This document shows, piece by piece, positions 18,902-21,952 of a stretch of DNA of 64,000 bases. This DNA is from Escherichia coli (lineage in GTDB: Bacteria > Pseudomonadota > Gammaproteobacteria > Enterobacterales > Enterobacteriaceae): NCBI RefSeq assembly GCF_003334765.1, contig NZ_QOWT01000014.1, one strand, 5' to 3'. The position numbers and the translations under genes are program-made. Every line of letters begins with the position of its first letter. Within the stretch, counting starts at the first letter, position 1. Below the pieces are notes generated by a model. The model searched no databases. It saw only the letters and a program-made list of their open reading frames with translations, and was not told the DNA's origin.

Positions 18902-21900
18902 ATGCAGGTCAGCAGAAGGCAGTTCTTTAAGATCTGCGCTGGCGGTATGGCAGGCACCACGGCAGCGGCACTGGGTTTTGCACCCAGCGTAGCACTCGCG
19001 GAAACCCGGCAGTATAAACTGCTGCGCACCCGCGAAACCCGTAATACCTGCACCTATTGTTCCGTAGGCTGTGGGCTGTTGATGTACAGCCTCGGTGACG
19101 GAGCAAAAAACGCCAAAGCATCTATCTTCCATATCGAAGGCGATCCGGATCACCCGGTCAACCGCGGTGCACTTTGTCCGAAAGGCGCTGGCCTGGTGGA
19201 TTTCATCCACTCCGAAAGCCGTCTGAAGTTTCCGGAATACCGTGCGCCAGGTTCTGATAAATGGCAGCAAATCAGTTGGGAAGAGGCGTTTGATCGCATC
19301 GCCAAACTGATGAAAGAAGACCGCGATGCTAACTACATTGCGCAAAACGCCGAAGGCGTGACTGTTAACCGCTGGCTCTCCACCGGGATGCTGTGTGCTT
19401 CCGCGTCGAGTAACGAAACCGGCTATTTAACGCAAAAATTCTCCCGCGCGCTGGGTATGCTCGCGGTCGACAACCAGGCGCGTGTCTGACACGGACCAAC
19501 GGTAGCAAGTCTTGCTCCAACATTTGGTCGCGGTGCGATGACCAACCACTGGGTCGACATCAAGAACGCCAACCTCGTCGTGGTGATGGGCGGTAACGCC
19601 GCTGAAGCTCACCCGGTCGGGTTCCGCTGGGCGATGGAAGCCAAAATTCACAACGGCGCGAAGCTGATTGTGATCGATCCTCGCTTTACGCGTACGGCGG
19701 CGGTAGCTGACTACTATGCCCCTATTCGTTCCGGTACTGACATTGCTTTCCTGTCAGGCGTATTGCTGTACCTGCTGAACAATGAAAAATTCAACCGCGA
19801 ATACACCGAAGCCTATACCAACGCCAGCCTGATCGTGCGTGAGGATTACGGCTTTGAAGATGGCCTGTTCACCGGCTACGACGCGGAAAAACGCAAGTAC
19901 GATAAATCCTCCTGGACTTATGAACTGGACGAAAACGGCTTCGCCAAACGCGATACCACGCTGCAACATCCGCGCTGCGTGTGGAACTTGCTGAAACAGC
20001 ACGTTTCCCGCTACACGCCAGATGTGGTTGAAAACATCTGTGGTACGCCAAAAGACGCGTTCCTGAAAGTCTGCGAATACATCGCAGAAACCAGTGCTCA
20101 CGATAAAACTGCCTCGTTCCTGTATGCCCTCGGCTGGACGCAACACTCCGTTGGTGCGCAAAACATTCGTACGATGGCGATGATCCAGCTGCTGCTCGGC
20201 AATATGGGGATGGCAGGCGGCGGCGTTAACGCCCTGCGCGGTCACTCCAATATTCAGGGGCTGACGGACCTGGGGCTGCTGTCGCAGAGCCTGCCAGGTT
20301 ACATGACGCTGCCAAGCGAGAAGCAGACCGATCTGCAAACCTACCTTACCGCCAACACGCCAAAACCGCTGCTGGAAGGCCAGGTAAACTACTGGGGCAA
20401 CTACCCGAAATTCTTCGTCTCTATGATGAAGGCCTTCTTTGGTGATAAAGCGACGGCGGAAAATAGCTGGGGCTTTGACTGGTTGCCGAAGTGGGATAAA
20501 GGCTACGACGTCCTGCAATACTTCGAGATGATGAAAGAGGGCAAGGTCAATGGCTATATCTGCCAGGGCTTTAACCCTGTTGCCTCATTCCCGAACAAAA
20601 ACAAAGTGATCGGTTGTCTGTCGAAACTGAAGTTCCTCGTCACCATCGACCCACTGAACACTGAAACCTCTAACTTCTGGCAGAACCACGGTGAGCTGAA
20701 CGAAGTTGACTCGTCGAAGATCCAGACCGAAGTGTTCCGTCTGCCATCGACCTGCTTCGCGGAAGAGAACGGTTCTATCGTTAACTCAGGTCGCTGGTTA
20801 CAGTGGCACTGGAAAGGTGCGGACGCCCCGGGGATTGCGCTGACTGACGGCGAGATCCTCTCCGGTATCTTCCTGCGCTTGCGCAAGATGTATGCCGAAC
20901 AGGGTGGCGCGAACCCGGACCAGGTGCTGAACATGACATGGAACTACGCCATTCCGCATGAGCCATCTTCAGAAGAAGTGGCGATGGAGAGCAACGGTAA
21001 GGCGCTGGCCGATATTACCGATCCGGCAACCGGTGCGGTTATCGTCAAGAAAGGCCAACAACTTAGTTCGTTCGCCCAATTGCGCGATGACGGTACAACC
21101 TCCTGTGGCTGCTGGATTTTCGCCGGTAGCTGGACGCCGGAAGGCAACCAGATGGCACGCCGTGATAACGCCGATCCGTCTGGCCTCGGTAACACGCTGG
21201 GCTGGGCATGGGCATGGCCGCTTAACCGCCGCATTCTGTATAACCGCGCCTCCGCAGATCCGCAGGGTAACCCGTGGGATCCGAAGCGTCAGTTGCTGAA
21301 ATGGGACGGCACTAAGTGGACCGGCTGGGATATTCCGGACTACAGCGCAGCGCCTCCGGGTAGCGGCGTCGGGCCGTTTATCATGCAGCAGGAAGGCATG
21401 GGGCGTCTGTTTGCCCTCGATAAGATGGCGGAAGGTCCGTTCCCGGAACACTACGAGCCGTTTGAAACGCCGCTGGGAACTAACCCGCTGCATCCAAACG
21501 TTATCTCGAACCCGGCTGCACGTATCTTTAAAGACGACGCCGAAGCATTGGGTAAAGCCGATAAGTTCCCGTATGTCGGAACCACCTATCGTCTGACCGA
21601 GCACTTCCACTACTGGACCAAACACGCGCTGTTGAACGCGATTTTGCAGCCAGAGCAGTTTGTGGAAATCGGGGAGTCGCTGGCGAATAAACTTGGCATT
21701 GCCCAGGGCGATACCGTGAAAGTCTCCTCCAACCGTGGCTATATCAAAGCCAAAGCGGTGGTGACCAAACGTATTCGCACGCTGAAAGCGAACGGCAAAG
21801 ATATCGATACCATCGGTATTCCGATTCACTGGGGCTATGAAGGCGTAGCTAAAAAAGGCTTTATTGCCAATACTTTAACGCCATTCGTTGGTGATGCGAA

Positions 21901-21952
21901 CACGCAGACGCCGGAGTTTAAGTCCTTCCTTGTGAATGTGGAAAAGGTGTAA
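18902..21952 (+). CDS. fdoG: Formate dehydrogenase-O major (catalytic, molybdopterin) subunit; selenoprotein with in-frame UGA (Sec) at 19487-19489
   Basis: Track ORFs 18902..19489 and 19538..21952 are in the same frame and separated only by TGA; twin-arginine signal (RRQFFK); 4Fe-4S Cys motif (CTYCSVGCG); 1016 codons in total. Confidence 0.92.
19490..19535 (+). other. Putative SECIS stem-loop directing Sec insertion at the fdoG UGA
   Basis: Imperfect extended inverted repeat (cacggacc...ggtcgcggtg with inner agcaag/cttgct) immediately 3' of the in-frame TGA. Confidence 0.6.

What the first reader, a model, noticed from the sequence alone, without database searches (positions are those of the whole stretch)
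18902..21952. In-frame UGA at 19487-19489 in fdoG decoded as selenocysteine, with a downstream SECIS-like hairpin
The ORF track splits the catalytic subunit into 195-aa and 804-aa pieces in the same frame, separated only by TGA. The flanking protein (…LAVDNQARV-U-HGPTVASLAPTFG…) is the conserved active-site region of molybdopterin formate dehydrogenases, and the RNA just 3' of the UGA can form an extended imperfect stem-loop. Naive gene finders would call a pseudogene or two genes here. The N-terminus also carries a twin-arginine (RRQFFK) signal.
Basis: partly seen in the sequence, partly recalled or inferred. Interest (0 to 1): 0.45.

Follow-up and report, generated by a model that had tools for sequence, protein, structure and literature searches.

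The report
Selenocysteine UGA and SECIS in fdoG

Summary
Confirmed and already known. The window is an E. coli chromosome segment very close to K-12. fdoG (18902-21952, +) is one 1016-codon reading frame, and its only internal stop is TGA at 19487-19489 (codon 196). Rfam's SECIS_3 model matches 19484-19542 at 84.3 bits (gathering score 63). Counting from the U of UGA, the apical hairpin spans nt 15-32, with U17 bulged and G23/U24 in the loop. That is the same register as the fdhF archetype. All 80 Enterobacterales fdoG/fdnG loci keep TGA. Codon identity in codons 195-214 is 98% against a 60% background, and fdoG and fdnG share their longest identical run (71 nt) exactly here. Distant Sec-type homologues (40-70% protein identity) keep the UGA and the hairpin, with compensatory changes in three apical pairs. 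selAB, selC and selD are present in essentially all 5426 complete E. coli genomes. Published mass spectrometry found the peptide VU196HGPTVASLAPTFGR. Three caveats: the hairpin's predicted stability is not better than shuffled sequence (z -0.6 to -2.0), so folding alone is a weak test; the lower stem is poorly supported; and Pfam's Tat model does not hit, although the SRRQFFK motif is present. Nothing here is new.

The parts
18902..21952 (+). fdoG, catalytic (alpha) subunit of formate dehydrogenase-O; 1016 codons plus stop, including Sec196
   Evidence: One open frame apart from TGA at codon 196. NCBIfam TIGR01553 scores 1574.6 bits against a cut-off of 814. 77% aa identity to FdnG, and a full-length match to PDB 1kqf_A. 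RefSeq annotates a single CDS.
18890..18895 (+). Shine-Dalgarno AAGGAG in front of the fdoG ATG
   Evidence: Read directly from the sequence. The internal ATG at 19538 has no comparable site (GGTCGCGGTGCG), which argues against a separate downstream gene.
18902..19000 (+). Predicted twin-arginine signal peptide (residues 1-33; SRRQFFK at 18911-18931; ALA|E cleavage site inferred)
   Evidence: Motif read directly. The literature describes 'typical Tat signal peptides' on FdnG and FdoG (PMC10609526). NCBIfam TIGR02811 is only weak at E=0.054, and Pfam PF10518 gives no hit.
19487..19489 (+). UGA codon 196, decoded as selenocysteine (the Mo ligand in the active site)
   Evidence: TGA is conserved in 80/80 Enterobacterales loci and in 14/14 distant loci. 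It aligns with X196 of 1kqf. The MS peptide VU196HGPTVASLAPTFGR was found, and Cys was never seen at this position (PMC3636253).
19484..19542 (+). SECIS element (full-length Rfam RF01989 SECIS_3 match)
   Evidence: 84.3 bits against a gathering score of 63, model positions 1-59 of 59. The fdnG copy is identical and scores the same.
19501..19518 (+). Apical stem-loop, the presumed SelB-binding unit: nt 15-32 from the U of UGA; G15-C32, G16-C31, U17 bulged (19503), A18-U30, G19-C29, C20-G28, A21-U27 (A22-U26); loop contains G23 and U24 (19509-19510)
   Evidence: MFE and pair probabilities. RNAalifold recovers this helix on its own. 96.4% of cells are paired and 3 pairs show compensatory changes. 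U17, G23 and U24 are invariant in 16 diverse sequences.
19492..19532 (+). Whole imperfect hairpin, including the lower stem (nt 6-13 with 38-46) and the asymmetric internal loop
   Evidence: MFE fold. The lower stem is 74-84% paired across homologues, its register is ambiguous (MFE versus Rfam consensus), and RNAalifold does not predict it.
19484..19549 (+). Block of frozen synonymous sites (codons 195-216)
   Evidence: Codon identity given the same amino acid is 98.3% in codons 195-214, against 60% elsewhere, across 80 loci. The longest identical run between fdoG and fdnG (71 nt) starts at 19484. The frozen codons include rare ones: GGA, AGT, CTT and ACA.
21965..22867 (+). fdoH, Fe-S beta subunit
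   Evidence: TIGR01582 scores 478.7 bits; annotation.
22864..23499 (+). fdoI, cytochrome b556 gamma subunit
   Evidence: NF007924 scores 453.3 bits; annotation.
23496..24425 (+). fdhE, accessory protein for the periplasmic formate dehydrogenases
   Evidence: NF002925 scores 604 bits; annotation.
17875..18708 (-). fdhD, sulfurtransferase for the Mo cofactor, transcribed divergently
   Evidence: TIGR00129 scores 340 bits; annotation.

Best explanation
fdoG encodes the 1016-residue catalytic subunit of the respiratory formate dehydrogenase-O. Its codon 196, UGA, is recoded as selenocysteine during translation. The mRNA just 3' of the UGA, still inside the reading frame, folds into a SECIS hairpin. 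The apical stem-loop (nt 15-32 from the UGA, with bulged U17 and G23/U24 in the loop) is bound by the C-terminal domain of the elongation factor SelB, which carries Sec-tRNA(Sec) (the selC product, charged through SelA and SelD). This tethers the ternary complex at the right distance from the ribosomal A site, so that it outcompetes release factor 2 at the UGA. The inserted selenocysteine becomes the ligand of the Mo-bis-MGD cofactor. The finished FdoGH unit is exported by the Tat pathway using the N-terminal SRRQFFK signal. Shown here: the in-frame UGA, its conservation, the SECIS model match, the fdhF-like register, covariation in the apical helix, RNA-level selection on synonymous sites, and the presence of the sel genes in E. 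coli. Taken from the literature: Sec at position 196 by mass spectrometry, and termination at codon 196 in sel mutants. Inferred by analogy with fdhF and fdnG: direct SelB binding to this particular hairpin.
For: TGA is the single in-frame stop. RefSeq annotates one CDS. SECIS_3 scores 84.3 bits against GA 63. U17 is bulged and G23/U24 are in the loop, with the apical stem starting 11 nt after the UGA as in fdhF (criteria from PMC8659212). TGA is present in 80/80 loci, and the 59-mer is identical in 65/80. Synonymous codon identity is 98.3% against 60%. The 71-nt identical run between fdoG and fdnG starts at codon 195, although the genes are 75% identical overall. Distant homologues all have TGA followed by an in-frame H[GSA][PS]TV and a hairpin in the same register. 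The apical helix is 96.4% paired and pair 21-33 occurs as AU:7, GC:7, CG:1, UA:1; 0 of 500 shuffles reach the observed covariation score; slid-partner controls drop from 88% to 32-45% paired. RNAalifold finds the same helix independently. Sec aligns with X196 of 1kqf. selA/selB, selC and selD are annotated in K-12 and present in 5426, 5425 and 5426 of 5426 genomes. MS found VU196HGPTVASLAPTFGR and never Cys, and translation terminates at codon 196 without Sec-tRNA (PMC3636253).
Against: The predicted folding energy of the element is not distinguishable from shuffled sequence (z -0.63 to -1.96), and in a 201-nt context only the core hairpin survives in the centroid structure. The lower stem shows weak and register-ambiguous support. 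The published Sec196 peptide is shared by FdoG and FdnG, so it does not by itself prove Sec in FdoG. However, 70.5% sequence coverage of FdoG in that study, reaching residue 618 or beyond, shows the protein is full length. The exact strain of the window was not identified, so sel-gene presence is inferred from their near-universality in E. coli. No experiment on SelB binding to the fdoG hairpin was retrieved.
Confidence: 0.97

Rival explanations
1. The TGA is a true stop. On this reading fdoG is a pseudogene, or two separate genes encoding a 195-aa and an 804-aa product.
For: Mechanical ORF calling gives two pieces. Public gene calls hold thousands of 195-aa fragments.
Against: The frame stays open directly after the TGA. 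There is no Shine-Dalgarno before ATG 19538. The 16 codons between the TGA and that ATG are perfectly conserved and homologous to the active site. TGA is conserved in 80/80 plus 14/14 loci rather than decaying. Peptides downstream of residue 196 were seen in FdoG by MS.
Confidence: 0.01
2. The UGA is read through without the Sec machinery, for example by near-cognate tRNA-Trp or by Cys insertion, and the hairpin is incidental.
For: UGA followed by C is regarded as a leaky termination context (my own knowledge, not tested here). The hairpin is not unusually stable.
Against: Cys was never found at position 196, and translation stops at codon 196 in sel mutants (PMC3636253). The RNA shows covariation and frozen synonymous sites, which an incidental hairpin would not. 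The SelB-contact nucleotides U17, G23 and U24 are invariant.
Confidence: 0.01
3. The striking nucleotide identity around the UGA reflects gene conversion between the paralogues fdoG and fdnG, or ordinary codon bias, rather than selection on an RNA structure.
For: fdoG and fdnG are 100% identical over 71 nt in the same genome. Codons 214-216 (ACC AAC CAC) are preferred codons, and N191 AAC is also 97% conserved outside the element.
Against: The same 59-mer is identical in 65/80 loci across many genera and in both paralogue types, which within-genome conversion cannot explain. The frozen codons include rare ones (GGA, AGT, CTT, ACA). In distant homologues the sequence does change, but in a compensatory way.
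Confidence: 0.03

Closest known systems
fdnG SECIS of E. coli (Rfam RF01989, SECIS_3)
   Same: The 59-nt element is identical to fdoG's in nucleotide sequence and scores the same 84.3 bits. Both have Sec at codon 196 with the same flanking peptide.
   Different: Nothing differs in the element itself. The host genes are paralogues (77% aa, 75% nt identity) that are regulated differently: fdnGHI is described as nitrate-inducible (PMC10609526), and the original fdo paper gives Fdh-O an aerobic role (title of ref. 14 in PMC3636253).
fdhF SECIS of E. coli (Rfam RF01988, SECIS_2), the archetype on which SelB binding was defined
   Same: It begins UGACACGG, its apical stem starts at G15-G16, position 17 is U, G23/U24 sit in the loop, and it lies inside the ORF directly after the UGA (criteria in PMC8659212). 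U18-A29 in fdhF corresponds to A18-U30 in fdoG, a swapped pair.
   Different: The apical stem is one base pair shorter with a larger loop, and the lower stem sequence differs. fdoG scores only 28.1 bits on SECIS_2, and fdhF scores 35.8 bits on SECIS_3. Vienna's MFE pairs U17 with A29 in fdhF at probability 0.49 rather than bulging it.
Formate dehydrogenase-N, PDB 1kqf/1kqg (FdnGHI)
   Same: The alignment is full length, with Sec (X) at the same position 196 and the same domains, Fe4S4, molybdopterin and MGD-binding.
   Different: About 23% of residues differ. The PDB sequence search returned no solved structure named as Fdh-O itself.

Membership tests
Bacterial SelB-dependent SECIS (fdhF/fdnG type; Rfam SECIS_3) | An in-frame UGA in a gene whose homologues have Sec or Cys at the aligned active-site position | tested here: met
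   Codon 196 aligns with X196 of 1kqf. A homologue with Cys at this position exists (P0124...ETQARVCHGPS).
Bacterial SelB-dependent SECIS (fdhF/fdnG type; Rfam SECIS_3) | Covariance-model score at or above the curated gathering threshold | tested here: met
   84.3 bits against 63, covering the full model 1-59.
Bacterial SelB-dependent SECIS (fdhF/fdnG type; Rfam SECIS_3) | A stem-loop inside the ORF directly 3' of the UGA, with the apical stem-loop starting 11 nt after the UGA (nt 15-31/32) | tested here: met
   G15-C32 and G16-C31 close the apical unit, at window 19501-19518. The criterion is stated in PMC8659212.
Bacterial SelB-dependent SECIS (fdhF/fdnG type; Rfam SECIS_3) | Bulged U17, and G23 and U24 in the apical loop (SelB contact bases) | tested here: met
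   All three are unpaired in the MFE structure and invariant in 16 diverse sequences, at alignment columns 20, 26 and 27.
Bacterial SelB-dependent SECIS (fdhF/fdnG type; Rfam SECIS_3) | Apical helix supported by compensatory base changes | tested here: met
   Pair types are 21-33 AU7/GC7/CG1/UA1, 24-30 AU8/CG7, and 22-32 GC13/UG2. 96.4% of cells are paired, and the slid-partner controls collapse. Caveat: there are only 16 sequences, and they are related.
Bacterial SelB-dependent SECIS (fdhF/fdnG type; Rfam SECIS_3) | Lower helix linking the UGA to the apical unit | tested here: inconclusive
   Pairing is 74-84%. The MFE register and the Rfam register both fit partly, at -17.4 and -7.2 kcal/mol on the E. 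coli sequence. RNAalifold does not predict this helix.
   z is -0.63, -0.77, -1.65 and -1.96 for four trimmings. The proven fdhF SECIS is no better, at z +0.32 and -1.28, so this criterion does not discriminate.
Bacterial SelB-dependent SECIS (fdhF/fdnG type; Rfam SECIS_3) | selA, selB, selC and selD present in the genome | tested here: met
   All four are annotated in K-12 and found in 5426, 5425 and 5426 of 5426 complete E. coli genomes. The window's own strain was not identified.
Bacterial SelB-dependent SECIS (fdhF/fdnG type; Rfam SECIS_3) | SelB binds the hairpin, and Sec insertion depends on it | not testable with these tools
   This needs gel-shift and reporter assays. The literature retrieved covers fdhF (PMC8659212) and Sec196 by MS (PMC3636253).
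Formate dehydrogenase-N/O alpha subunit (NCBIfam TIGR01553) | Whole-protein score above the curated cut-off, and the Fe4S4, molybdopterin and MGD-binding domains | tested here: met
   1574.6 bits against 814.2. PF04879, PF00384 and PF01568 all hit.
Twin-arginine (Tat) signal peptide | An S/T-R-R-x-F-L-K motif, followed by a hydrophobic stretch and an A-x-A site | tested here: met
   SRRQFFK, then ICAGGMAGTTAAALGFAPSVALA|E, read. Described as a typical Tat signal in PMC10609526.
Twin-arginine (Tat) signal peptide | A match to a profile model of Tat signals (Pfam PF10518 or NCBIfam) | tested here: not met
   Pfam gives no TAT_signal hit at E<=10. TIGR02811 formate_TAT reaches only E=0.054, 13.8 bits against a cut-off of 48. 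Short-motif HMMs are insensitive, so this lowers the formal call but not the reading.

The most novel reading that the evidence does not exclude
The frozen block is longer and stricter than SelB binding should need. Published work on fdhF says the bases outside U17, G23 and U24 are highly variable as long as the required pairing is kept (PMC8659212). Yet in Enterobacterales the whole stretch of codons 195-216 (about 66 nt) is essentially invariant in both paralogues. That includes the unpaired internal loop and about 15 nt beyond the hairpin. This could point to a second, unrecognised constraint on the RNA. Candidates are a defined interaction with the ribosome's mRNA entry channel, refolding kinetics between successive ribosomes, or a regulatory partner.
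Probability: 0.12. Interest if true: 0.3.

Novelty: already known. Interest (0 to 1): 0.07.

Why it matters
The biology itself is established: E. coli's three selenoproteins are its three formate dehydrogenases (PMC3636253). The practical point concerns annotation. Any pipeline that does not model Sec recoding cuts this gene at codon 196. Public databases hold thousands of the resulting 195-aa fragments, and some carry wrong names. The analysis also shows that a simple "is there a stable hairpin?" test cannot recognise a bacterial SECIS, because even the proven fdhF element fails it. Register, invariant contact bases, synonymous-site freezing and covariation can.

Tried and rejected
1. I tested folding energy against shuffles as evidence for the hairpin. 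It is not significant for fdoG or for the proven fdhF SECIS, so I rejected it as a discriminating test.
2. I tried covariation within the 80 Enterobacterales loci. There is too little variation: 65/80 are identical, and only one compensatory A-U to G-C change was seen, at pair 15-42 in Erwinia L085. I therefore turned to distant homologues.
3. The search for homologous proteins with the N-terminal fragment listed only hits of at least 79% identity, which was no use for divergence. The representative search gave the diverse set.
4. Two of the 12 contig look-ups yielded nothing: P0122 was not on record, and P0181 had no DNA. L090 and L096 were too short downstream of the UGA.
5. fdhF and L094 were left out of the pair-count alignment, because an indel puts them out of structural register.
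6. Pfam and NCBIfam profile models did not confirm the Tat signal.
7. The promoter and terminator scan of the operon showed nothing above the shuffle expectation.
8. Two original papers (PMC177593, PMC147357) are not held in the library. They are cited only through the reference lists of PMC3636253 and PMC8659212.
9. The Rfam consensus register for the lower stem gives non-canonical A-C and A-G pairs on the E. coli sequence (-7.2 kcal/mol, against -17.4 for the MFE register). Neither register is clearly favoured by the comparative data.
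Full report
**Source of the window**

The 3.3 kb around the finding is 100% identical to many E. coli chromosomes, including K-12 MG1655, and matches all 5426 complete E. coli genomes at 95% identity or more. Compared with NC_000913.3, the window is the reverse complement of roughly 4,040,724-4,104,7xx. It differs by about 20 SNPs, none of them in fdoG, and by a REP array about 185 nt shorter near window 10190-10418. It is therefore an E. coli strain very close to K-12, but not MG1655 itself.

**The observation**

- TGA lies at 19487-19489, in frame with the ATG at 18902 and the terminal stop at 21950-21952. 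It is the only internal stop in 1017 codons, at codon 196.
- The ORF list shows 18902-19489 (195 aa) and 19538-21952 (804 aa) in one frame. The second ORF only appears to start 16 codons later because the lister waits for an ATG. The frame is open from the TGA onward, giving 195 + Sec + 820 = 1016 residues.
- A strong AAGGAG Shine-Dalgarno precedes the 18902 ATG. Nothing comparable precedes ATG 19538.
- RefSeq annotates a single 3051-nt CDS.

**The protein**

With Cys standing in for Sec, the product scores 1574.6 bits on NCBIfam TIGR01553 (cut-off 814). It carries the Fe4S4, molybdopterin and MGD-binding Pfam domains. It aligns end to end with the solved FdnG structure 1kqf, where the aligned residue 196 is X, that is Sec. 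The neighbouring genes are fdoH, fdoI and fdhE downstream, and the divergently transcribed fdhD upstream.

The N-terminus reads MQVSRRQFFK-ICAGGMAGTTAAALGFAPSVALA|E, which fits the S/T-R-R-x-F-L-K consensus. The literature calls the FdnG and FdoG signals typical Tat peptides (PMC10609526). Profile models did not confirm this: Pfam gave no hit, and TIGR02811 reached only E=0.054.

**The RNA element**

Rfam SECIS_3 (RF01989) matches 19484-19542 over its full length at 84.3 bits, against a gathering score of 63. It is the only SECIS hit in the 64-kb window.

Numbering from the U of UGA, the fold is as follows:
- Lower stem: nt 6-13 pair with nt 38-46.
- Asymmetric internal loop.
- Apical unit: G15-C32, G16-C31, U17 bulged, A18-U30, G19-C29, C20-G28, A21-U27 (A22-U26).
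- G23 and U24 sit in the loop.

These are the features the literature gives for the fdhF archetype: an apical stem-loop 11 nt from the UGA, a bulged U17, and loop G23/U24 as the SelB contacts (PMC8659212). The E. coli fdhF element folds the same way in the same register and is a SECIS_2 member at 87.1 bits.

Predicted stability is not evidence here. For fdoG, z against dinucleotide shuffles is -0.63 to -1.96. The proven fdhF SECIS gives +0.32 and -1.28.

**Evidence for selection on the RNA**

1. Paralogues. fdoG and fdnG are 77% identical in protein and 75% in DNA. Their longest identical run, 71 nt, begins exactly at codon 195 (window 19484). All 18 degenerate codons in codons 195-214 are identical, against 58% gene-wide.
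2. Orthologues. In 80 fdoG- or fdnG-type loci from Enterobacterales, codon 196 is TGA in 80/80 and the 59-mer is identical in 65/80. Codon identity given the same amino acid is 98.3% for codons 195-214, against 60% elsewhere. The block has sharp edges at codons 195 and 216. It includes codons that are rare in E. coli (GGA, AGT, CTT, ACA).
3. Distant homologues. A representative search with the 195-aa fragment found many proteins that end exactly at ...QAR[VIL]. For ten of them DNA was retrieved, giving 14 loci. Every locus has TGA there, followed by in-frame H-[GSA]-[PS]-T-V. Each of the 12 loci with enough downstream sequence also has a hairpin in the same register, ACGGU-stem-(A/G)GU(C/U)U-stem-CC.

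On a gapless 16-sequence alignment, the apical helix is 96.4% paired. Three of its pairs show compensatory changes:
- 21-33: AU7, GC7, CG1, UA1
- 24-30: AU8, CG7
- 22-32: GC13, UG2

No shuffle out of 500 reached the observed covariation score. Sliding the 3' partners by 1-3 columns drops pairing from 88% to 32-45%. RNAalifold, run independently, predicts exactly this helix with the bulged U and nothing else. U17, G23 and U24 are invariant.

The lower stem is only 74-84% paired. The comparative data fit both my MFE register and the Rfam consensus register only partly. This agrees with the published view that the apical unit is the essential part. The sample is small and the sequences are related, so the shuffle counts are not probabilities.

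**The Sec machinery**

selB and selA, selC (tRNA-Sec, UCA anticodon) and selD are annotated in K-12. They are found in 5426, 5425 and 5426 of 5426 complete E. coli genomes.

**Published experiments**

Zorn et al. (PMC3636253) purified Fdh-O and Fdh-N. They identified the peptide VU196HGPTVASLAPTFGR and never saw Cys at position 196. They state that translation of fdnG and fdoG stops at codon 196 without Sec-tRNA(Sec). That peptide is common to FdoG and FdnG, so it is not FdoG-specific. However, FdoG was covered to 70.5%, with peptides reaching residue 618 or beyond, which shows read-through. The original assignments are their references 13 (Sawers 1991), 14 (Abaibou 1995) and 17 (Berg 1991). 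I could not open these papers.

**Rival readings**

- Pseudogene or two genes: excluded by conservation of the TGA, the open and conserved frame, the missing RBS, and the MS data.
- Sel-independent read-through: contradicted by the literature and by the RNA-level selection.
- Gene conversion or codon bias as the cause of the conserved block: cannot explain identity across many genera, the frozen rare codons, or the compensatory changes in distant lineages. Codon bias may account for codons 214-216.

**Verdict**

The feature is a textbook member of a known family and holds nothing new. The only mildly open point is why the whole 66-nt block is frozen across Enterobacterales, unpaired parts included, more strictly than SelB binding is thought to require.

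Noticed in passing
Public protein sets; corresponds to window 18902-19489: The 195-aa N-terminal fragment ending at the Sec UGA exists as thousands of separate gene calls (for example P0003, 3382 member sequences). Several NCBI/nr entries name it wrongly, as 'sulfate ABC transporter substrate-binding protein' or 'anaerobic dimethyl sulfoxide reductase subunit A'.
   Followed up: partly
window 18695-18931 (+): There is a sub-threshold match to Rfam RF02778 'FdoG-1 5' UTR thermometer' (36.4-36.5 bits against GA 50) across the fdhD-fdoG intergenic region and the first 10 codons. The alignment is carried mostly by the RBS and the MQVSRRQFFK-coding part, with large insertions elsewhere. Whether E. 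coli fdoG has a thermosensing 5' UTR was not tested.
   Followed up: partly
L001 4203-7253 (NZ_CP032667.1): PGAP labels the fdoG locus 'fdnG / formate dehydrogenase-N subunit alpha' in many RefSeq E. coli records, whereas NC_000913.3 calls it fdoG. The paralogues are not told apart by the naming model.
   Followed up: no
window 10190-10418: A REP / naRNA4 array (Rfam hits at 10243-10313 and 10335-10405) lies between rhaD and rhaA. It is about 185 nt, roughly two repeat units, shorter than in MG1655. The window also carries about 20 SNPs relative to MG1655, none in fdoG.
   Followed up: partly
L091 228-286 and 1077-1135: A 1160-nt metagenome contig carries two SECIS_3 matches with identical scores, 849 nt apart. 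This is probably an assembly artefact or a local duplication.
   Followed up: no
L094 about 1189-1260: A 717-kb metagenome contig has the TGA and hairpin, but one extra base in the 3' arm shifts the frame (downstream reads HGPTVAGLAPYVRPRRDDEP). This is either an assembly indel error or a decaying gene.
   Followed up: no
P0124 (1017 aa): A full-length homologue, 67% identical over the N-terminal part, has Cys at the Sec position (...ETQARVCHGPS). Cys-type versions of this enzyme therefore exist alongside Sec-type ones.
   Followed up: no
window 19484-19549: The frozen synonymous block extends about 15 nt beyond the 3' end of the hairpin, through codons 212-216, and covers the unpaired internal loop. 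Codon bias may explain part of this, but not obviously all of it.
   Followed up: partly
window 62725-63818 (+), and 17875-18708 (-): mobA and mobB, which make the guanine-dinucleotide form of the molybdenum cofactor that FdoG needs, lie about 41 kb from fdoG in the same window. fdhD and fdhE flank the operon directly.
   Followed up: no
window 53435-53688 (-), 54717-54835 (-), 46399-46506 (-), 44441-44509 (-): Other Rfam hits above threshold are the CsrC, Spot 42, ES222 and STnc370 sRNAs. All are expected for this E. coli region.
   Followed up: no
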